Part shown: positions 13,868-25,532 of the stretch, in pieces | Layout: the number at the start of each line of letters is the position of its first letter | Position numbering within the stretch: position 1 is the stretch's first letter | Assembly (NCBI RefSeq): GCF_009914755.1 | Contig: NC_060939.1 | Reading direction: 5' to 3' (one strand) | DNA length: 64,000 bases | Source: the human T2T-CHM13v2.0 reference genome, Homo sapiens | The notes under the pieces: model-generated | Databases searched by the model: none | What the model was told of the DNA's origin: nothing | Seen by the model: only the letters and a program-made list of their open reading frames with translations | Program-made: the position numbers and the translations under genes

Positions 13868-14012
13868 AGGCAGCAGTTGGGAACAGCTGTAGAGATGGAA
13901 ATTGCCCAGATGCTGGAGGAGAATTCAAGGATCCTCAAGTTTGGATACCAGTTTACCAAGCAAGGGCCACGAACAAGGGTGGCAGCTGCCATCACAAAGA
14001 ATAATGACCTGG
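13868..14012 (+). CDS. TMOD2: Tropomodulin-2 penultimate coding exon (probably exon 9)
   Basis: CCAG| acceptor, G|GTAATT donor; 145 nt; [48 protein letters not shown] in frame with previous exon. Confidence 0.97.
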
Positions 14013-15910
14013 GTAATTCAGCCATAATATTTGCTGTTAACAATTAGAAGAGCATGAGCATTCACTTCTCCACTTCAGACGCAGCATCTCACAGATACCA
14101 TTCCACTGGCCTCTGATGTCACTCACTTCTTCATATAAGACGCATTATTATAATACATGGTCATAGGAGTCTTTGTGGTCCTCGCAGTGTTAAGATTCAT
14201 CATAGCATTTTCTCAAAAAAGAAGTTTGTTCTATTTTCCAGGCAGTCTTTGATTTTTGCTTGATTTCTTTTGTGTATTTGTTTCTCTTTTACTTACATGT
14301 AATCTCCTTCTGTTTTTATCTGCACCAGAAAATGGGCACAAGGACACTGAGATTCCAAATTATGTTTGACTTCTGACTGCTTTGGTACTTAGTTCTAAAT
14401 ATGGATATGTCTGATACTTTGGCACTTTACATGTGATATAAACATGGAGCTACATTATGAAGTTTAAACTCACAGGTCGCCTTTTCAGTTAGCCCCTTCA
14501 GTTTTTCGTGTGGCCACTTGTTGCTGAGGATCCCTGGCATTTCTTCTGTTAGGATGAGGTGGGGCATGTCCTGATCAACCATAGCAAAGAAGAAAGGAAC
14601 TGGGAAAGCTTGGTCTGAGGATATCCCAGCCACCTGGAGCAGCCTGGCAAAAGGACACCCAGGAGCAGACATCCATTTGGCAAGTGGTCAGTCAGTCAAT
14701 AGCAGGCTTCAATCCCCAGTTTGAGGTTCAGGGACAGAATGCCAGATCTTGGATGGAGGAACTGGGCAAGGCGTTCCACCAGGTACAGTGCTGGCCTCAA
14801 GGAGGACTCAGATAGTGGGCAAGATAGAAGCTAAAGGTTAGAACGGGAAGGGGCAAATAAAGGTTAGCCTCCAATTCCTTGTCCAGACAGGCTTTGCCAA
14901 GACCCTGAGGCGTAGGAAAGGTGCAGTGTGTGGCATCAGGAAGCTGGCTGGACACGTGACAGTGCTTACCTGGGGGGTGCACAGGGTGAGGCCAAGGGAC
15001 AGACAGGCAAATAGGGATTTGGGGAAGAGTGGAAGCAGCAATCAGAAGGCACCTAGGAAAAGCACATTGGGTCCACAACCAAACAATATAGAGACCAAAG
15101 GAAAACAGGCAAAATGAGAGGTCTGAAGAAAATGGACAGGGCAGCCTACGTCCAAGAAGCAGCAACTGTGGGCAAGAGCCTAGGTAGGAGCTAGGCTATT
15201 TAAAGTGGAGAGTTAGAGCAAGACCACAGCCAGGGCACCTTTTTGCCAAATCCAAGAAAGTTCAAATAGCCCTCTTCCCAGTGACCAGGAGAGCCTGCAG
15301 TTGGGAGAGTGAAAGGTGGAAGAAGAGGGTTGCAGGAACTGGGAAACGGCAGTCTCGGCAACTTCTTCGGTTCTAAACATCAGGTTAAAAGAACATTAAT
15401 CTCTGAGTTTGCTTGCCAAGTGAATCACACCTTCCTGTAGGTTGATACTTAGAAGTTTTTATTTAGAAGAGTTTCAGAAACTTTGAACTATTTGCAGCTC
15501 CTTCCAGACTTCATCCCATAATCAGAATTAAAAGATTGTGATTGTGTTAACCTGAAGAGTTAGTTAAAGCCAGTTGGTGACAGAGTTGCAAGTGCCGTGG
15601 ATAAACGGCCATGAAAATAGTCAAAGTGCACTGTTTCACGGGTCTCTTCTGGAATTTCTATCCCATAGAAATTCGAAGGTTCTAACACTCGAGTACCCAA
15701 CTATCAGACATATATGTATTTAAATGTAAATTCCACCAGACACTGGATGAATTTATCATTTCCATTGATTGTCATGGTTAAGTATTAAAATTTAAGATAA
15801 CTGTATCCTCAAGTGTGTGAGATTGTCATCTTATGTGATTAATGTTGTTTATCTGGAATTTAAGGAATATCCCTTCAATTTGTCTTTTTGTTCCTTTCTT
15901 TCTTACCTAG

Positions 15911-15945
15911 TTCGTAAGAAGAGAGTTGAAGCAGACCGAAGGTAA
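15911..15945 (+). CDS. TMOD2: Tropomodulin-2 last exon, coding part (V)RKKRVEADRR*
   Basis: Long pyrimidine tract + CCTAG acceptor; phase-1 join gives GTT (Val); TAA at 15943-15945; C-terminus matches recalled TMOD2. Confidence 0.96.
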
Positions 15946-16045
15946 ACTTCCTTGAGGAGAAGTGAAGTTTCACTGTGGTATGGCCATTGAAAAACAAAAA
16001 CTCTTCTTCTTCCCCATCAGGACCATTTTATCAAAGTTCGTTCAT

Positions 16046-16053
16046 TTCCGTTA
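16046..16053 (+). promoter_or_regulatory. miR-191-5p 8mer site (TTCCGTTA)
   Basis: Complement of seed AACGGAA plus A1; second 7mer-m8 site TTCCGTT at 22279-22285. Confidence 0.7.
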
Positions 16054-17670
16054 ACCACATAACTAATAATTTAATTGTTATTCTTTTTTAGCACTACTTA
16101 TTTATCTTGGATTTTGTAATATATGCAATTGTTTTATTTGCTCATGGGCACTTCTGGCAACTTGACAAATGGACCGATGCAGATTTTAGAGAGTGACGAC
16201 ATGGAAAATGAATTTAACCACTTTCTTATTGGGTTGTCTTGCTTTCTTACATGAACTTGTTTTTTTAATCACTGAAAGGAATTTAGTGTATAATATGTGT
16301 TTGTAACTGTGATTATGATAGAGGCCTATCTCTGTTTACATGCATAGCTTTGAGTTAGGCTAAATACATCAGAAGTGTTCTACTGACCACATAAGAAGTT
16401 AGTATTGCCAATCTTTCACTGCATGTGAAAATGTGACCAATTTAGCACAAATTCTCTCTTAGTTCCAGAAAAATCAGTAAATGCACATGCCCTGTTGATT
16501 GGAGATCAGTAGTGTCATCTTCATAAAGCAAGACAACATTATGACACTTTAAAACAGTAGCAAAGAAGTCTATTTATTAACCCACAAATGTAGCATCAAG
16601 CCAGACTCACAGGTAGCAAAATGAATTACACACCTACTTTTACTGACTATTCAACATAAATTGAATCTTTAACATGACCTTAAAGGCTATTTACAAAGCT
16701 GTTTTAAAGTTTTTCAAACATGATAGAAATTTTCTAAATTTTAGTAAGAGAGAAGCTTTTAAAACAGTACATTCCTGAATAAAACAACAATATTGTATCT
16801 TAATCAAGGCTGTCTGATGCAGATGATTGCATTTTTTGGCAAATTTTAGAAGCATTTATTGCTTTGTCTTTAGTGTAACAAGATCACAGGATTAAATATA
16901 AACATTCAGGTTAATTATCTAGATTTTTGTCCACAGTATATGATCCATCCAGACATTTGCAAACGTCAGGAGAAAAATGTGAATTATTTATCCAGATGCA
17001 TGTCATCTCAAGGACAAAGCCTGTGAAAGTACAAGTGAGATGGTTGCATTGTAGTATGCATTAATCTTTCAATGTAGTGGTGTAAAAATGCAGTGCTAAA
17101 CTAATGAAGCAGGTGACTGCAGCCTTTGGCTCAAGCTCACAACTCTGATAACTGTCAGTGCCTGAGGTTGTGATTGGTGACATTCTGACACTGCCCAAGG
17201 CAACTCACCCTCTATTCCTCCTTTCTCCCCTCCCTTTCTTCCAATTCATTGTCTTTTTTTTCCTCTTTTCTCTGTAATTTGTTACTAAACAAATTCCAGA
17301 ATTTGTTTAGTAGCTGAGTGTTCCTGAGTTGCCTAGTAGCAATAAAACAAGTGAATAGGAAAATAATTAATATATTATTCTATTTAGCTTGTAAAACACA
17401 TGGAATCTGTTTAAGATAGCCCTTGTAAAATTGAACATTTACCTGTATTGTAAGTACCCACATCTGTGTCTCTGAAGTCCTTTGAAACATCTCATTATCT
17501 TGAAATTTTTTTAATGTTTGAGAACACCATAAGCAGAATATTCTAACACCTTTGGCCCCTGAAAATCCTTTAATTAGTTTATGGCTTCATCTCCTTATCT
17601 ATTTAAAAAACATAGTAAATAATGTTTTATGGTTTTCAGTCTGATTTTTCCTTCCCTTTCACCCATTTAG

Positions 17671-18087
17671 GTGTGATGTGTTGGAGTCAACTTGTACAGG
17701 CTTGCCAACTGTTATATTTTCAAGAATTTTGCAAACTGGTTGTTCAATACAGCCATTATTTAAAATTAAATGATGTGCACTTACAACTGAATGAATTATA
17801 TTAAGGACAGAAGTAACAAATACTGTACTCAAAAATCTTACATTTTACTATTTTCTAACCTCTTAGATTATTTACATCTAGTAGGTATGTATGTAGAAAT
17901 ATTACCAAACAGTATGCTACTGAACGTATCCTCTCAACTCCATGTTCACTACCTTCTTGTTACTACAGTGGCTTGAAATTGGCCATGGTAGAAATATTTA
18001 CACCACAGAAATTAGCAATATGTAAGAAATTGGGGTTTTCTCCCTCTCCAGATTGCTGGTTGATAAACATTCATCAGCACACCACTG
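17671..18087. mobile_element. MER63-like (hAT-Blackjack) element within TMOD2 3'UTR
   Basis: AAGAATTTTGCAAACTGGTTGTTCAATACAGCCATTATT...GGCTTGAAATTGGCCATGGT...CAGCACACCACTG resembles recalled MER63 consensus. Confidence 0.7.
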
Positions 18088-18619
18088 GGTGAAATTATAC
18101 ATTTTTTTATACATATGTTTCGCTTATCATGTTGCCGAAGGGAAGAACATTTCTCTTAGATGTCTTTTCTCCTCTTTGGATTTGTTACAAACCTGTTTAA
18201 GTGCTGAGTCCCTGACCTGCCTCTCCAAGTAAGCCTTTTTCCTTTTTTTTTTTTTTTTCTTACTCTCATTCTTGCCTTGACTCTTAAAATCCTGGACCCT
18301 ATAGAGCATTCCTTGCAGCCCCACAGTGCTGTGGGCTGGGGGCTAAAGCAGTTCTTGGCAAACTCTGGCAGAAAGCAAGAAAAAAAAAATCAGAATTCAA
18401 TCATGGCTGTTTCTTTTGTACAAGCAGTTGTTGATAGTATTAAAGCAAGATAATGGGACATTATCAAAAATATAGCACTGTTTTTACCTTATGAAATAGT
18501 TGGGTTGCATGCAACAGAGTCTATGAAATCAAATGTTTTTTACTAATCAGTTTGTTTTCTTATTACCTGTGTTTTTAAAGTGGCTTGAAAGGTGGCATTT
18601 CCATGAGTGTGCACATATT

Positions 18620-19720
18620 GATGATAACCCTTAGAAAAACATACACTTGAGGAGCCTATCCATCATTTAATTAGCCTAGGACTTCATCTCCCTCTCTGCC
18701 CAAAGTGTGGAAGTGGTAGCTCTTTCATGATCATGGGCACAGTTAATCCTTTGCTATCCATTGTGATGGGGCATAATGTATATAAAATATTTTTCTATGT
18801 ATTTGTTCTGCCAGATACTGTGTTGAGATATTTGGCAATATCTGGATAACTGACTGAAGGGAGATAACTTCTCCCCAGGCCTATCTCCCTCCCCCTTTTA
18901 GAGTTGTGCAGGTCCACTTTAAGTGTAAAATCACTCACCTGGACTTGTGGGCTTGTATCACCAACATCTATTATGGCACATGTAGATGACATTTAGGAGA
19001 AAAACCTTAGAAGTCTAGAAATCATATGATTAGTTCAGCACTGCAGCTCCCCATCTGCTTATAGTGTATAACTGGAAGCTCTTTCATCCTCATCAGCATG
19101 ATTAAATGACTTAGTTTCTTTCATCTTTGGAGGGTATAATGTAAATAAGTGTCGTGTGTGTATGTGTGTGTGTACTGTCAGATATCTAACTAGGTATTTG
19201 GCTACATCTGGACAACTGATTGAAGGGAGATGCTCTCTCCCCAGTCCTCTTCCCTTGTCCTTTTTAGAATTGCTGCAGGCCCAGGTTAAATATGAAATTA
19301 CTCCCTAGGCTTTGCAGTTTATGTTACCAACCACCACATTTTATAGCTATGTAGAGGATGACTCTTAGGAAATAAATATTAGAAGCCTAGAAATCATTTA
19401 GTTGTTCTAGCACCAAATCTATCCATTTGCCTAATGTATTTAACATTCCATCCTCATCAACATGATGAAGCCCCTTTCTTCCATCTTTGTAGGGCACATT
19501 GTATATAAATATTTTGTACATAAAGATCATCAAATACCATAATGGGGTATTTGGCTTCATCTGGAAAATTGACTGGAGGGAGATGCTGTCTCCCAGCCCT
19601 GCTTCCCTCGTCCCTGTCCAAGTTGCTGCAGGCCCAGGTTAGAAGATTACCAACCTGGAGGGGCATGCAGTTCATCTTACAATAAAAGCCCATTCATTTA
19701 AAAACTCAGAAATCATCCCA
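18620..19720 (+). repeat. Diverged ~360-nt tandem triplication with one PRE and two hairpins per unit
   Basis: Anchor TATTTGGC..ATCTGGA.AA.TGA.TG.AGGGAGAT at 18829, 19195, 19548; TGCAGG(T/C)CCA at 18907, 19274, 19627; TGTANATA at 18777, 19140, 19500. Confidence 0.9.
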
Positions 19721-21115
19721 GTGCCTGTACTCCTCAAACCAATTTCCCTAAGGGAAGACTGGCACACCAGCCCAAAGAGCAGGTGCTTCTCTTCCAACAG
19801 AAACATGGCCCCTGACAGGGCACCAGCATTAGGGAAACCAATGTCCTCCGAATAGCTGCCATGAGAACATTTCAGATGCTCAAACTGAAAATTCTTAAAA
19901 CCAATATTAAGCATCAGCATGCTTTAAGTGTAAGATAGCCCTTTGGAATTTACAAACACATGTGCAGCTATTTCCTTCTTCACAGATATGATGTACTCAG
20001 CCCCCTCCTAGGCACTACGAAGAAGACAGAGGAAGCATAAAAATTCTGGACTAATATAATTTTATATGTGTTTCTGAGATTGGGGAGTAGACTGAGTGCC
20101 TTTTTTACAAAGAAGATCCCATATTTAATTCAAGTATTTATAGCATCAGCAAAAATGGGCAGAGGGCGGGAAGTTGAGAACACTAGGTTCTGTGCTATGT
20201 TACCTGTATTCAGTAGAAGTGTTTCTGGAGTCAGGTTTTAAGTCATGATCCTGAAGCTTCCTTCCCCTCTTCCACTAATGATGCAATAATAGCTGTTTTC
20301 ATTTTAACGAGCAGAGAACTAAGAGGAAAGGTCCTAGCTCTGCCTTCCACTTGCAGCTTCCCTTTACCTCCTCTTATTGCTTTCATCTCAAATATCCCTG
20401 CTACTCAACCAATCCTAAAGCTAAAGTACTGAGATGCACACAAAGGAAAGGTGTGAGAGTGCTTGGAAGCATCCAGCTGAGCCCACTGGATGAAAATCAG
20501 ACGATAGGGCCTCCTGTTGTAATATACTAGCCAGAGAAAAGCGCCAAGAACTTCAGGGATATTATTCACTGCTTTCTTGCTCCCTAACCCTAGATCAGAT
20601 TGGATTTTACTTTGTAGTTCAGGAGTTAAGAAGTCAAATTGCTGACCGAGGTGGGGAAGGATGATGGAAATTAAAGGTTTACATTTGTTTAATGGCAGAA
20701 CTGAGATTTGCTCAGCTTATCTCTTTCCCATCTGTCTGTAATAGCAATGACTGAATAATCAGTAGACCAATGGAAGAGGAGTTGCAAGTTTAAATTTGTA
20801 ACCTGACTCTGGGTTCTGTTCTAGGAATAGTGCATGTTTTAGAGGCTTTGCCAGTTGGGATACATTGTTGACTTGGGGGAGGATGAAGGAGAGAACTGAT
20901 GACCTAGACATAGAAAAGAGTAGTTAACTAACTAGATGTTCTTCTGATCTCTTCCATGGTAGACATTCTGAGCACATTGGCCCAGTTAGTTGGTATGGTG
21001 AAGGGGCACCGTACTAACAGATTTGGAGACTGAAACCTAATCCCATCACCAACACTTAGCAGGTATATGATCATGGGCAATTCATTCAATTGCCTGCCAA
21101 TTATAGACTATATAG

Positions 21116-21350
21116 GGGGAAGAGCACTGGATTTGGAGTCAAGAAACCTGGACACTTGGCTCCACACTTCCTTAGCTGGGTAACTTTGGGCAAACCGCTT
21201 GGTCTCTCAAGCCTAAGGTTCTTCAGCTATAAAATGGGAATAATACTTCACTAACTACCTCACAGAGTTGTGGTAAGAATATAATCAGATAACTGGATAA
21301 AAACACTATATAAACTGGAAAGCGCCGTACAAATGTGAGAGATCAGTTTT
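21116..21350 (+). mobile_element. MIR in TMOD2 3'UTR
   Basis: AAGAGCACTGGATTTGGAGTCAAGAAACCTGG...TTCAGCTATAAAATGGGAATAATA...CCTCACAGAGTTGTGGTAAG. Confidence 0.8.
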
Positions 21351-21954
21351 ATTATCAAATCACTGTTTTCCACTGCCTCTTGAATCGGCTTTATTCTAAC
21401 CAACCATTACATCTTTCTCATCTTTTGGAGTATGGGTAATTGAGGCTTGGGTGTGTCATCAGGGACTGGAGTTATTTCAGCTCCCATGTAGAGGTGGGAG
21501 AGGTGGTTGATGGGGCAGTGGAAGTTAGATACCAGCGATGTATATGGTAGGACATTTTCCTGGGTCACTTTGACAGTACCTTGGGAAATTGTCAATCCTT
21601 GCAGAGGGCCTAGGCTGGGCACAAGGGAGAAAGCGAACAGTTGACTAAGAATTGAGGGGAGGGTCTGGAGCGCTACTGCCCTCCTGTCATTGCTGTGGGT
21701 GGGAGAGGCTAAGACTTCAGGTTTGACTGGAGGCCTAGGAGAGAAGAGTGTCCTTAGGGTTTCAAGAATTTTAATGCCTAGCAGCTGAGTAACAGGCATT
21801 AGTTCTGATAGATAGTGAAGGGGAGAAAGTGCCACCTGTTGTGAGATCACCTCTCCAGGGCAGCAGCTGCCTTGTTATCACCAGCAACCTTAGCCCTGGT
21901 CAGTAATATTTCTGCTAAGAAAGGTTTTGAAGCATGGCCTCCAATGACTTTCAT

Positions 21955-22270
21955 AAGCCCTTGGAGGCAGGACTGTGTCTCATCCATCTTTGTATCTTCA
22001 GTACCATCTTGTAAGGTGCCTTGTACATAGTAGGTGCTTAATGAACAAATGTTGCTTGAATTTAGCTGTCGTCCAGCCCCACAGAGTTATGCTCCATTTG
22101 CCACCATGTGATATTTTTGAGAAACAATAGTGATTTGGATGCCAGCTCTATGTGACTTTGGGCAAGACTCTCCATCTATCTTGTCTTCATTTCATCTGTA
22201 AAATGAAGTGAGTAGATTCAATGCTCCCTAAGGTCCCTTCCAGCTCCAATACTTGACAAGCTTGTGATTC
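21955..22270 (+). mobile_element. L2 3'-end fragment and MIR fragment
   Basis: GTGCCTTGTACATAGTAGGTGCTTAATGAACAAATGTTG (L2 end); TGTGACTTTGGGCAAG...TCATCTGTAAAATG...CTAAGGTCCCTTCCAGCTC (MIR). Confidence 0.7.
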
Positions 22271-22466
22271 TAAATCGTTTCCGTTGCCTCTGAACATGGG
22301 TGAGTAATGCCTCCACTGCAGCTGTTTCTCTCCAGGAGGCTTTGTTCGGAGGAGGTCTGACTATTGCACAGCCAGTTTTTTCTTCCTCTTCAGCAGTTCT
22401 TTACTGTCTTCAGAATAGTTCTGGATAAGCGGCCTTTTCTGAAAGGATATTTAAAAATATATACTA

Positions 22467-23109
<643 letters not shown>

Positions 23110-23829
23110 TCAGTTAAGAAGTAAGTTATTCTGACCTAAAATTCTTATCTCTGCCACTTTGGTTTAAAAACAAAAACCCTTATATACATGGAATAGTTAT
23201 ATTTTAATTAAGCATTTATTTTAGTTGTTTTCATCCATTCAAGCAAAATGAATAAGCAGCATTTTTCATTGCACTTAAAAATGTAAAATACCTGCATGCC
23301 ACTAATCTGTAACATTTTACCAGTTCAGATGCCTGTAATGTGTGACTTTATGTGTGTCTGTGTTGTTTTGAAGAGAATAAAGGAAATAATACTTTGCAAA
23401 CTGTTTAAACAAGTGTTTAAACTTCTATTGGCAACATTTATTGGGCTAAGCAGTTATTGAAAACTCCGCATAGTTTTATTTTCCATTTGAAACTTCAATC
23501 AAATCAAGACTATTATATTCATTAGGGAATTAAAGACTAATTTGCTTTTTAAATGTGAAGTTGAACACTGTGTGGAAAGTAAATGTGTGATGAAGCAAAA
23601 TGTATAAAGTATGAAATATTATACTTTTACCCTGGATAATTATTCAGGACCCCAGTTGGCCCAAATAGGTGCAATTTTTAATCCTTTGAAATTAGCCAGC
23701 CAGACCTAATGCTAAGGTAAATGTAAACTGTTTTAATTAATTAAGATCTTTCTGCTTTCGAAGGTATAATGTATCTATTTCTGTCAGGAATGATATTTCC
23801 AAATGAAAATGTAAAGAACATTGGGAAAT

Positions 23830-23835
23830 AATAAA
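23830..23835 (+). terminator. TMOD2: TMOD2 distal polyadenylation signal AATAAA
   Basis: AATAAA with upstream TGTA elements and downstream T-rich tract (GGTTTTTATATGG...GTGTTTCTTT). Confidence 0.75.
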
Positions 23836-24454
23836 CTTTCCTTTCAAAGTAAAAGTAAAGACTGGTTTTATATGGCTAATTTTTAGACAGTGTTTCTTTA
23901 AAACAAATGGTTGGCATCATGTTCTTAGATGAGCACATTTGCAGAAAACTATTAAATGCCCTTATGATGAAGAAACAAGACAACTGCAAGTAGCCATAAC
24001 AGAGAGAAATAACTTGTTATCAAACAAAAATGAACACATTTGGCTAAATAGTTAAAAATTTGTTAGAATGAATGGGAACAGGAGTACAGAAAGCCCAAAC
24101 AGGTTGACTATTTTACCCTGAATTTTTTACACTAATTTTGGATTTACATTATTATTCTCTTTAAAGCTCTTCTGATAATTTGTAATACTGAACACTAAAA
24201 ATGATGAAGTTATGTTGTAAAGGTTTGACCCTGGAAAAACAGGAAAAACTGTTCTTCCTGCCCTTCTGCTGAACTCTGTCCCAACTCTTTGACCCTTGGA
24301 TTTCAGTTTAGACTGATAAGGTTCAACTGAGAAACATAAAGGGCCAGTGTCTAATTTCTATATTTGCTGTTTCACACCTTCTCTTGGACAAGAAAGTATA
24401 GTAATTATTTTGTTTAAAAGATTCTCCCTTTCAGCCTATTGGATTATAATGAAT

Positions 24455-24655
24455 AGAGTGGTTACAAGTGTGCACCCTGGGGTCACACCTGCCTGGTTCA
24501 GATCTCACTTCCATTAGTTACACGAATTTGTGCAAATTACCAAGCCCCAGCTTCATCTGTAAAGTAGTAACAATTATAGCATTTTTCACGGTAGTACTAT
24601 TATGCAGATTAATGTGTAAAAACATTTAGAACAGTGTCCGATATAGAAGGCACTT
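24455..24655 (+). mobile_element. MIR
   Basis: AGAGTGGTTACAAGTGTG...CTGGTTCAGATCTC...TTCATCTGTAAAGT...AAAACATTTAGAACAGTG. Confidence 0.7.
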
Positions 24656-24691
24656 AGAATTTTTAAATTCTAACCTAAATAAATATCTATG

Positions 24692-25532
24692 TGAAACAGG
24701 AAATGTTCCCTTGTCCCCCTTGCAGGGCATGCGACAGGGCGAGTTGCTCGCTTCTTCAGTGCCCCGCTGCTCAAATGTCTAGGGGAGCATACAGACAGGC
24801 AGGCTGTGGAGCTCTGACCCCACGGCAGCGTCTAGGGGTGAATGTTTACAGCTGAAGCCCCAGTGGGCGTGTTGCAGGGTGCTTTCTTAGTTTGCCGTCT
24901 ATAGGCGGCTTGTGTTAACCACTCAATTAGAACTTATTACCTTGCCTCAAGGACAGAGGGCTTTCTGTATCCTGGGTTCTTGCCTTGGTGTGCCGGAAGA
25001 ATTGGATCACAAGTGGGCTTGGAGAATGAGTGCAAACTTTTATTAAGTGGAAGTAGCTCTCCACAGATGGGTGAGCCAGAGGGAGATGGTTTTCCCTTGG
25101 AGTTCTGGCCGCTCGGCCGGCTCTCCTCCGACTGCCCTGGCCAAACTCCACCTCATCCCACTGGTGGATGGCCGCATGGCCTGCCTGATGCATGTCAGTG
25201 TATTCTTCCACCGATGTGCTCTCCTCAGTGGCCTATCTACAGCCCAGCCACTTGTATCTTCTTCCACCAACCCTCTCCTAAGTCCAGCCACCGTGTCTCA
25301 GCCTTGCCAGTGTCTCAGGTTTTTATAGGCCCAGGATGGGGGCGTGGCGGGCCAGGGTGGTCTTGGGAAATGCAACATTTGGGCGGGAAGGCAGGAGTGC
25401 CTGTCCTCACCTAGGTCCGTGGGGGTGGACCCCTAGCCAGAGACCACACCGACCTCTGCCCAGCGCTTCCCTAACCCCGTTCCGTATCATTTAAAGGGAC
25501 TACACTCTTCCCTTCCCAGCACTCCTGTATCA
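24692..25532 (-). mobile_element. ERV1 solo LTR (LTR1-like), antisense to TMOD2/TMOD3
   Basis: TG...CA termini, 841 bp, 4-bp TSD TATG/CATG; minus strand starts TGATACAGGAGTGCTGGGAAGGGAAGAG; TATAAAA (plus 25321-25327) and AATAAA (plus 25039-25044) on minus strand; subfamily from recall. Confidence 0.85.

What the first reader, a model, noticed from the sequence alone, without database searches (positions are those of the whole stretch)
18620..19720. NORAD-like triplicated 'Pumilio element + two hairpins' module in the TMOD2 3'UTR
Seen: three diverged ~355-367-nt tandem units (anchors at 18829, 19195, 19548), and possibly a trace of a fourth near 19700. They match no transposon I recognise. Despite many substitutions and indels, each unit keeps a perfect Pumilio response element at the homologous position: TGTATATA 18777-18784, TGTAAATA 19140-19147, TGTATATA 19500-19507. 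Only the degenerate N position varies, and unit 3 has an extra TGTACATA at 19515-19522. Each PRE is followed by a U/UG-rich spacer and two stem-loops. Established: UGUANAUA is the PUM1/PUM2 site, and the NORAD lncRNA consists of repeats combining PREs, U-rich stretches and short stem-loops. Inference: this is a multivalent PUM-binding RNA module in a neuronal mRNA, controlling TMOD2 stability, localisation or local translation, or acting as a PUM sponge or condensate seed. I do not know of a description of it.
Basis: partly seen in the sequence, partly recalled or inferred. Interest (0 to 1): 0.88.

Follow-up and report, generated by a model that had tools for sequence, protein, structure and literature searches.

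The report
Ancient triplicated Pumilio-site module, TMOD2 3'UTR
The long 3' untranslated region of the neuronal gene TMOD2 carries three very old, diverged copies of a ~360-base segment that each still keep a Pumilio protein binding motif and two small RNA hairpins, which makes it a plausible but untested repressive control module.

Summary
Window 18611-19700 consists of three tandem ~360-nt units: 57-68% pairwise identity, 166 invariant columns of 400. All four Pumilio response elements (PREs) are at the stated coordinates. Three of them sit in the same alignment columns, and only the degenerate N position varies.

Two hairpins after each PRE can form in all three units, with 51 of 54 cells paired. 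They show no covariation.

Conservation is clustered. The PRE is one of five conserved blocks. The best-kept stretch is not the PRE but a 45-column core running from the 3' arm of hairpin A through hairpin B.

The units have no other copy in the genome and no sequence homology to NORAD. "NORAD-like" is therefore an analogy of layout, not membership.

Most likely this is an old, selectively retained cis-regulatory module of the long TMOD2 3'UTR isoform, acting partly through Pumilio-mediated repression. A sponge or condensate role is unlikely with four sites.

Binding, cross-species conservation and function could not be tested here. I found no published description.

The parts
18611..18975 (+). 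Repeat unit 1 (365 nt)
   Evidence: profile E 5e-106
18976..19347 (+). Repeat unit 2 (372 nt). It has the fewest unique changes: 29, against 67 for unit 1 and 61 for unit 3.
19348..19700 (+). Repeat unit 3. Similarity to the unit profile ends at about 19698-19700.
18777..18784 (+). PRE of unit 1, TGTATATA
19140..19147 (+). PRE of unit 2, TGTAAATA, in the homologous columns
19500..19507 (+). PRE of unit 3, TGTATATA, in the homologous columns
19515..19522 (+). Extra PRE, TGTACATA, found only in unit 3, inside the spacer
18809..18837 (+). Hairpin A of unit 1. The stem pairs CCAGAUAC with (G)AUAUUUGG; the loop varies between units.
19177..19202 (+). Hairpin A of unit 2
19530..19554 (+). Hairpin A of unit 3
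18859..18875 (+). Hairpin B of unit 1. The stem pairs GGGAGA with UCUCCC. All 12 stem bases are invariant in the three units; the loop varies.
19225..19241 (+). Hairpin B of unit 2
19578..19594 (+). Hairpin B of unit 3
18829..18875 (+). Most conserved core, shown for unit 1. The equivalents start at 19195 and 19548. It runs from the 3' arm of hairpin A through the conserved linker (AUCUGGA.AA.UGA.UG) to hairpin B. 34 of 45 columns are invariant.
   Evidence: permutation P=0.0004
18870..18900 (+). C/U-rich tract of unit 1, 84% pyrimidine. The equivalents are 19236-19266 (87%) and 19588-19620 (79%).
18904..18916 (+). Conserved block TTG(C)TGCAGG(C/T)CCA of unit 1. The equivalents are 19270-19283 and 19623-19636.
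19149..19173 (+). (GT)n microsatellite that fills the spacer of unit 2

Best explanation
A ~360-nt segment of the TMOD2 3'UTR was duplicated in tandem to three copies a very long time ago. From its divergence I infer that this is at least as old as placental mammals.

Since then the copies have drifted apart. Each has nevertheless kept the same ordered set of RNA elements:
- a Pumilio response element;
- a variable U-, UG- or AU-rich spacer;
- a 9-11-bp hairpin;
- a conserved single-stranded linker;
- a 6-7-bp GC hairpin;
- a C/U-rich tract;
- one further conserved block.

The module sits only in long-3'UTR TMOD2 transcripts. I think it works in cis as a repeated repressive control element. 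PUM1/PUM2 would bind the three or four PREs and recruit the CCR4-NOT deadenylase, lowering the stability or translation of the long isoform. The hairpin core and the C/U tract would bind other, unidentified proteins.

What is shown: the repeat, the motif retention, the clustering of conservation, the foldability of the hairpins and the uniqueness in the genome.

What is inferred: the age, the selection, Pumilio binding and the repressive effect.
For: Repeat and units.

PREs. They are at homologous columns, 7 of 7 specified positions are invariant, and the only change is at N. About 0.44^7 = 0.003 would be expected from the unit's own invariant fraction; that figure is my arithmetic.

Conservation is non-random.
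- 21 eight-column windows have at least 7 invariant columns, against 5.8 in permutations (P=0.002).
- The 45-column core has 34 invariant columns against 26.9 (P=0.0004).

Hairpins. 51 of 54 cells are paired, against 31-56% when partners are slid. Stems are conserved while loops vary. The 75-nt windows fold with z-scores of -2.99, -2.02 and -1.01.

PRE density. The module has 4 in about 1.09 kb. NORAD has 15 between positions 761 and 4599. The densities are similar.

Not a dispersed repeat.
- BLAST-level genome searches with each of the three units find only local copies.
- The 35-place core pattern with up to 3 mismatches gives 3 of 3 hits local and 0 control hits.
- The unit profile against 264 kb finds nothing else below E 0.02.

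Transcript context. The module is inside both RefSeq mRNAs. AATAAA hexamers at 16778 and 17341 could give short isoforms that lack it.

Literature.
- A passage in PMC12742782 (passage only) cites earlier work that TMOD2 3'UTR shortening goes with increased protein. That fits repressive elements in the distal UTR.
- The abstract of PMC7962487, seen in the listing, gives the mechanism of PUM repression through CCR4-NOT.
Against: - No binding or functional data were reachable. Supplementary CLIP tables are closed, and no main text links TMOD2 to Pumilio.
- No other species could be examined, so selection is inferred from three paralogous copies only.
- The hairpins have no compensatory support. 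All five measures equal their shuffles.
- The minus strand folds almost as well: -21.8, -18.9 and -19.8 kcal/mol, against -24.3, -23.8 and -21.8.
- The 146-148-nt windows of units 2 and 3 fold no better than shuffles, with z of -0.39 and -0.22.
- Predicted PRE accessibility is only moderate, at the 64th to 91st percentile.
- The PRE is not the best conserved block, so Pumilio may not be the main reason the module is kept.
- By the stricter motif UGURUAUA used for NORAD, only 2 of the 4 sites qualify.
Confidence: 0.5

Rival explanations
1. The module is kept mainly for something other than Pumilio. The conserved 45-nt core (3' arm of hairpin A, linker, hairpin B), together with the C/U-rich tract, would be a repeated binding platform for other RNA-binding proteins. 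Candidates are poly(C)- or polypyrimidine-binding proteins, or a localisation factor. The PREs would be accessory.
For: - The core is the most conserved stretch: 34 of 45 columns, P=0.0004.
- All 12 stem bases of hairpin B are invariant while its loop varies.
- Each unit has a tract of 79-87% pyrimidine. That is at or above the 95th percentile of 31-nt windows in the UTR.
- TMOD2 mRNA is reported on RAB7A late endosomes in neurites of human motor neurons (bioRxiv 10.64898/2026.01.19.700337, passages).
Against: - No known motif or Rfam family matches the core.
- The preprint assigns the endosome targeting of TMOD2 to its 5'UTR and GEMIN5, not to the 3'UTR.
- The PRE is itself one of the five most conserved blocks.
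Confidence: 0.2
2. This is a neutral relic. An old tandem duplication in a long 3'UTR is decaying, and the shared PRE and stems are what happens to be left. The module as such has no function.
For: - Pairwise K2P distances of 0.42-0.65, with a transition:transversion ratio near 1, show deep decay.
- The hairpins have no covariation.
- Short windows are not significant on their own. For 8-20 columns the maximum-window P is 0.11-0.26.
Against: - Invariant columns are clustered beyond permutation, with P=0.002 and 0.0004.
- The single PRE difference falls on the one free position.
- The stems are kept while the loops change.
- The 3'UTR is nearly free of masked repeats: 4%, against 22-32% in the flanking intron and intergenic DNA. 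That fits constraint on the UTR.
Confidence: 0.2
3. This is a true functional analogue of NORAD. The TMOD2 long 3'UTR would act in trans as a Pumilio sponge or condensate seed in neurons.
For: - PRE density in the module is similar to that of NORAD.
- The grammar of PRE, U-rich stretch and two hairpins is repeated.
- NORAD and TMOD2 RNAs are both listed as enriched on RAB7A late endosomes in human motor neurons.
Against: - The module has only 4 sites, against 15-17 in NORAD.
- Tichon et al. estimate about 1,200 sites per cell for NORAD. TMOD2 would need hundreds of long-isoform copies per cell to match that.
- There is no homology to NORAD.
- From recall, not from a call: high valency is what lets NORAD out-compete ordinary targets. 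The paper (PMC8266761) was not held.
Confidence: 0.05
4. The units derive from a rare ancient transposon or another DNA-level element such as an enhancer array, and the RNA reading is incidental.
For: - The minus strand folds nearly as well.
- The mask file covers only 19% of the window, so it probably marks high-copy repeats only and says little about old families.
- Dfam was not available.
Against: - There are no other copies in the genome or in 264 kb of neighbourhood.
- There is no tRNA-, 7SL- or other RNA-derived head.
- No RefSeq enhancer or silencer is annotated in 14000-25000.
- Of the 13 plus-strand PREs in the whole 64-kb window, 4 lie in this 1.1 kb, and none of the 15 minus-strand PREs does.
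Confidence: 0.05

Closest known systems
NORAD lncRNA repeat units (Tichon et al. 2016, PMC4947167; passages read)
   Same: - Both are old tandem duplications of units of about 300-400 nt.
- Each unit keeps a PRE at a fixed place, followed by a U-rich stretch and two predicted stem-loops.
- Further conserved sequence of unknown partner is present.
- PRE density is similar, about 3.7-3.9 per kb.
   Different: - There is no sequence homology.
- TMOD2 has 3 units and 4 PREs. NORAD has 12 units and 15-17 PREs.
- Order and spacing differ. NORAD has a 4-bp stem 2-5 nt after the PRE and then an 8-10-bp stem. TMOD2 has a 24-30-nt spacer, then a 9-11-bp stem, then a 6-7-bp stem.
- The TMOD2 module lies in a coding mRNA's 3'UTR, so the default expectation is cis-repression and not sequestration.
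- TMOD2 units add a C/U-rich tract.
Ordinary multi-PRE 3'UTRs of Pumilio target mRNAs
   Same: - Perfect UGUANAUA motifs lie in the 3'UTR of a neuronal mRNA.
- The expected outcome is PUM-dependent deadenylation and decay (abstract of PMC7962487, listing).
   Different: The sites are not independent scattered motifs. They are homologous copies inside a repeated, multi-element unit.
Repeated C/U-rich 3'UTR control elements bound by hnRNP K / PCBP (the DICE of 15-lipoxygenase mRNA; recalled, from no call)
   Same: Tandem repetition of a 3'UTR element that contains a C/U-rich tract.
   Different: - DICE units are about 19 nt and near-identical.
- Here the tract is one part of a 360-nt unit, and it is conserved in composition more than in sequence.

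Membership tests
NORAD repeat unit | Sequence homology to NORAD units | tested here: not met
   The TMOD2 unit profile against the NORAD locus L003 gives a best E of 21. The best blastn hit is 31 nt at E 0.056.
NORAD repeat unit | One or two PREs at a conserved position in each unit | tested here: met
   3 of 3 units have a PRE in columns 171-178. Unit 3 has a second. By the authors' stricter UGURUAUA motif, 2 of the 4 sites qualify.
NORAD repeat unit | Short 4-bp stem-loop directly after the PRE | tested here: not met
   The 24-30 nt after the PRE differ in sequence and length between units. The consensus fold pairs them only with the PRE itself. NORAD shows a GGAC/GUCC stem there.
NORAD repeat unit | U-rich stretch between the elements | tested here: inconclusive
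   Unit 1 is 56% T, unit 2 is (UG)n and unit 3 is AU-rich at 38% T.
NORAD repeat unit | Stem-loop of 8-9 bp | tested here: met
   Hairpin A has 9-11 bp in 3 of 3 units, with 28 of 30 cells paired and no covariation.
NORAD repeat unit | Units older than the eutherian split (orthologous units more alike than paralogous ones) | not testable with these tools
   No other vertebrate genome is reachable. K2P of 0.42-0.65 between units suggests great age, by inference only.
NORAD repeat unit | PUM1/PUM2 binding and relief of target repression | not testable with these tools
   No CLIP data were available, and the supplements of papers are closed.
Pumilio-regulated mRNA | UGUANAUA in the 3'UTR of the mature mRNA | tested here: met
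   There are 5 sites in 15946-23854, and both RefSeq mRNAs run to 23854.
Pumilio-regulated mRNA | Change of mRNA or protein on PUM loss; CLIP peak | not testable with these tools
   Text searches found no statement on this.
Interspersed repeat (transposon-derived) | Dispersed copies elsewhere in the genome | tested here: not met
   Each unit as a BLAST query finds only local hits. The core pattern gives 3 of 3 hits local. The profile against 264 kb finds none. The DNA search skips very common words, so this is not proof.
Interspersed repeat (transposon-derived) | Match to a curated repeat library (Dfam/RepeatMasker) | not testable with these tools
   Only the assembly's mask was available. It marks no repeat of 100 bp or more between window positions 14000 and 22440, but it covers only 19% of the window.
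Minisatellite / VNTR | Head-to-tail copies alike enough for Tandem Repeats Finder | tested here: not met
   TRF at minimum score 30 reports only T16 and (GT)n.
Structured RNA family (Rfam), miRNA or snoRNA cluster | Covariance-model match | tested here: not met
   A cmscan of 15900-23900 at E<=1 gives 4 hits, all in the Alu at 22472-22755. ARAGORN finds 0 genes.

The most novel reading that the evidence does not exclude
An mRNA-embedded module that converged on the NORAD design. The three TMOD2 units would be an independently evolved 'PRE plus hairpins' platform that assembles several Pumilio molecules and hairpin-binding partners into a higher-order particle. That particle would direct where the long TMOD2 mRNA sits and when it is translated in neurites, possibly in the same late-endosome-associated RNA pool in which NORAD is found. 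This would mean the NORAD architecture is a recurrent solution and not a one-off.
Probability: 0.08. Interest if true: 0.75.

Novelty: new variant of a known kind. Interest (0 to 1): 0.45.

Why it matters
Pumilio proteins and tropomodulin-2 both act in neuronal morphology and plasticity.

A repeated, apparently constrained multi-element module would give a defined 1.1-kb handle for asking how the long TMOD2 3'UTR isoform is repressed or localised.

A second, unrelated instance of the 'PRE plus hairpins in old tandem units' layout would also make the unexplained hairpins of NORAD easier to study by comparison.

If it proves to be a decaying duplication, it is only a curiosity of 3'UTR evolution.

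Tried and rejected
Homology to NORAD: rejected.

Known RNA family, miRNA, snoRNA or tRNA-derived element: nothing found in the repeat.

Coding potential: 8 ORFs of at least 40 aa overlap the region. The longest is 82 aa, and none is repeated unit by unit. Rejected.

Paralogue inheritance: rejected. The last exon of TMOD3 (L027) and the last 5 kb of TMOD1 (L028) have no match to the unit profile; the best E is 2.4. They have 3 and 0 PREs. The TMOD2-TMOD3 UTR similarities are all at the Alu position.

Strand test by folding: the plus strand is 2-5 kcal/mol more stable in 3 of 3 units, but z-scores are similar. Not decisive.

Covariation test: no signal with three sequences.

Fourth unit: not established.

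Mosaic origin of unit 2. Unit 2 is nearer to unit 3 in columns 1-150 (29 sites against 16). It is slightly nearer to unit 1 in columns 201-374 (41 against 32; my sums). This fits an unequal-crossover origin of the middle unit, and it would explain why the distances are not clock-like. It is a weak trend that I did not test further.

Literature. I made seven searches.
- TMOD2+Pumilio: 10 papers, 8 listed.
- TMOD2+PUM2: 11 papers, 9 listed.
- TMOD2+UTR+CLIP: 13 papers, 11 listed.
- 'NORAD-like': 3 papers, 2 listed, both on Toxoplasma.
- Pumilio / tandem duplication / UTR / repeated units: 36 papers, 15 listed.
- TMOD2+alternative polyadenylation: 8 papers, 7 listed.
- NORAD / Pumilio / repeated units / stem-loop: 98 papers, 15 listed.

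I judged most papers from the listing and the start of the abstract only. I read passages of PMC4947167, bioRxiv 10.64898/2026.01.19.700337, PMC11294396 and PMC12742782. None describes this module. Supplementary CLIP target tables, which were closed, may list TMOD2.
Full report
**What is there**

I read window 18300-20100. The repeat finder shows three direct copies with a period of about 360 nt.
- Family D1 has 96-nt copies at 18827, 19193 and 19546, with spacing 366 and 353 and 70-80% identity.
- Families D3-D7 cover the rest of the unit.

I set the units at 18611-18975, 18976-19347 and 19348-19700. Their alignment has 166 invariant columns of 400.
- Pairwise identities are 67%, 57% and 68%.
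- K2P distances are 0.44 (U1-U2), 0.65 (U1-U3) and 0.42 (U2-U3).
- Transitions and transversions are about equal.

A profile of the three units recovers each at E 1e-104 to 1e-113. Tandem Repeats Finder sees only a (GT)n run at 19149-19173 and a T16 run, so the copies are too diverged for it.

The proposed fourth unit rests on a single 19-nt, 79% match at 19698-19716. It is not seen by the profile.

**The Pumilio elements**

The 7,909-nt 3'UTR holds five in all, the fifth at 22022. Markov simulations expect 0.8-1.5 for the UTR and 0.16-0.59 for the 1.1-kb region.

Because the units are copies, the three homologous PREs are one ancestral site that has been retained, not three chance events. The right question is therefore retention. 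In my alignment the PRE occupies columns 171-178. All seven specified positions are invariant, and the only difference is at the free N position. With 44% of columns invariant overall, seven out of seven is about 0.003 by my arithmetic. Predicted accessibility of the four sites lies at the 64th to 91st percentile of the UTR's 8-mers, which is moderate.

**The rest of the unit**

Conservation is clustered.
- 21 eight-column windows have at least 7 invariant columns, against 5.8 in column permutations (P=0.002).
- They fall into five blocks: the PRE, TATTTGGC, ATCTGGA, AGGGAGAT and TTG.TGCAGG.CCA.
- The best stretch is a 45-column core with 34 invariant columns against 26.9 expected (P=0.0004).
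- Short windows of 8-20 columns are not significant alone (P 0.11-0.26).

The core spans the 3' arm of hairpin A, a linker and hairpin B.
- Hairpin A has 9-11 bp and hairpin B has 6-7 bp, pairing GGGAGA with UCUCCC. Both form in the minimum-energy fold of all three 75-nt windows, with z-scores of -2.99, -2.02 and -1.01. Both also appear in the consensus fold.
- Counted on the alignment, 51 of 54 cells pair, against 31-56% when partners are slid.
- All five measures, covariation included, equal the shuffles. The only support for structure is that stems are kept while loops vary, plus four pairs in hairpin A that change on one side only, three of them with all three units still paired.
- The longer 146-148-nt windows of units 2 and 3 are unremarkable, with z of -0.39 and -0.22.
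- The minus strand folds nearly as well.

Each unit also has a tract of 79-87% pyrimidine right after hairpin B, which is at or above the UTR's 95th percentile. The spacer after the PRE differs between units. It is U-rich in unit 1 and (UG)n in unit 2. In unit 3 it is AU-rich and carries the second PRE.

**Origin**

The units are not a dispersed repeat.
- Each unit used as a genome-wide DNA query finds only the local copies.
- The 35-place core pattern with up to three mismatches hits only the three local sites, with no control hits.
- The unit profile finds nothing else below E 0.02 in 264 kb, which is the window plus twenty 10-kb neighbouring stretches.
- No Rfam family, tRNA-like head or repeated ORF is present.
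- The assembly mask has no repeat of 100 bp or more between 14000 and 22440. It covers only 19% of the window, so it says little about old families. Dfam was not available.
- TMOD3 and TMOD1 have no related sequence in their last exon or gene end.

Unit 2 has about half as many unique changes (29) as unit 1 (67) or unit 3 (61). It leans towards unit 3 in its 5' part and towards unit 1 in its 3' part. This is what an unequal crossover between two older units would leave, but the trend is weak.

The depth of divergence is comparable with what is established for Mesozoic-age repeats; that comparison is recalled, not tested. From it I infer that the duplication is at least as old as placental mammals. 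No other genome could be examined.

**Comparison with NORAD**

I fetched the NORAD locus from the same assembly.
- It has 15 UGUANAUA sites between positions 761 and 4599, or 3.9 per kb. The TMOD2 module has 3.7 per kb.
- There is no sequence similarity. nhmmer gives E=21 and the best blastn hit is E 0.056.

Tichon et al. (PMC4947167, passages) define the NORAD unit by four features:
- one or two PREs;
- a 4-bp stem-loop;
- a U-rich stretch;
- an 8-9-bp stem-loop.

They date the duplication to more than 100 million years ago. Folding three NORAD units shows the 4-bp GGAC/GUCC stem 2-5 nt after the PRE and an 8-10-bp stem about 10 nt further on. The TMOD2 unit has no conserved short stem after the PRE. 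Its long stem comes first, after a 24-30-nt spacer, and its GC-rich short stem comes second. The resemblance is one of grammar, not of descent or exact layout.

**How it probably works**

The module lies in both RefSeq TMOD2 mRNAs. AATAAA hexamers at 16778 and 17341 lie upstream of it and could give isoforms that lack it. Whether they are used was not tested.

A passage in PMC12742782 cites earlier work in which TMOD2 3'UTR shortening accompanied higher protein. That fits repressive elements in the distal UTR, though it does not point to this module in particular.

Perfect PREs in a 3'UTR are the established recognition sites of PUM1/PUM2, which speed decay through CCR4-NOT (abstract of PMC7962487 in the listing). 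My best reading, at confidence 0.5, is a cis-acting repeated repressive module. Pumilio would be one reader, and unidentified proteins would bind the hairpin core and the C/U tract.

A sponge or condensate role is unlikely with four sites, against 15-17 in NORAD.

One curiosity comes from a 2026 preprint (10.64898/2026.01.19.700337, passages). It lists both NORAD and TMOD2 RNAs as enriched on RAB7A late endosomes of human motor neurons. The authors assign the TMOD2 effect to its 5'UTR and GEMIN5, and they do not mention Pumilio.

**Novelty and verdict**

Seven text searches gave no description of this module. Most papers were judged from listings only, and supplementary CLIP tables were closed.

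I rate it a new variant of a known kind: a multi-PRE 3'UTR whose sites are homologous parts of an old tandem multi-element unit. The sequence facts are solid. The function is inference. Interest is 0.45.

Noticed in passing
window 17337-17600 and 18435-18697: An older, separate duplication. About 265 nt just upstream of unit 1, plus the first ~90 nt of unit 1, recur 1,098 nt upstream, which is three unit lengths. Identity is 59% at blastn E 1e-9. The score is 55.4 bits, against a mean of 18.7 and a maximum of 32.6 in 200 Markov shuffles. The upstream copy has no PRE. It may be a relic of a longer array or an independent duplication.
   Followed up: partly
window 17283-17312: A perfect 14-bp inverted repeat with a 2-nt gap (TACTAAACAAATTC / GAATTTGTTTAGTA). 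It would form a strong hairpin in the 3'UTR about 30 nt upstream of the AATAAA at 17341.
   Followed up: partly
window 19681-19686: An AATAAA hexamer sits right at the end of unit 3. Another lies at 19371 inside unit 3. The downstream G+T content is low, at 0.38-0.45. Use as a poly(A) site was not tested.
   Followed up: no
window 19149-19173: A (GT)12 microsatellite fills the spacer of unit 2, where units 1 and 3 have U- or AU-rich sequence. UG repeats are a known kind of protein-binding site; this was not pursued.
   Followed up: no
window 22441-22782: This is the only masked repeat in the 7.9-kb 3'UTR. It is Alu-like: partial Rfam matches to Metazoa_SRP, plus sub-threshold mir-3135 and mir-1268 matches. 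The UTR is 4% masked, against 22% for the upstream introns and 32% for the intergenic DNA.
   Followed up: partly
L027 (TMOD3 last exon, chr15:49716361-49723313): The TMOD3 3'UTR holds at least five mutually similar ~300-nt copies that also match the TMOD2 Alu. It has 3 PREs and no relative of the TMOD2 unit. This contrasts with the nearly repeat-free TMOD2 3'UTR.
   Followed up: partly
window 18243-18258 and 18380-18389: A T16 run and an A10 run lie about 105 nt apart. They form an imperfect inverted repeat just upstream of the module.
   Followed up: no
literature, not sequence: A 2026 bioRxiv preprint (10.64898/2026.01.19.700337) reports TMOD2 mRNA and NORAD together among RNAs enriched on RAB7A late endosomes in human iPSC-derived motor neurons. 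TMOD2 is lost from them in a FUS mutant, while NORAD stays (passages).
   Followed up: partly
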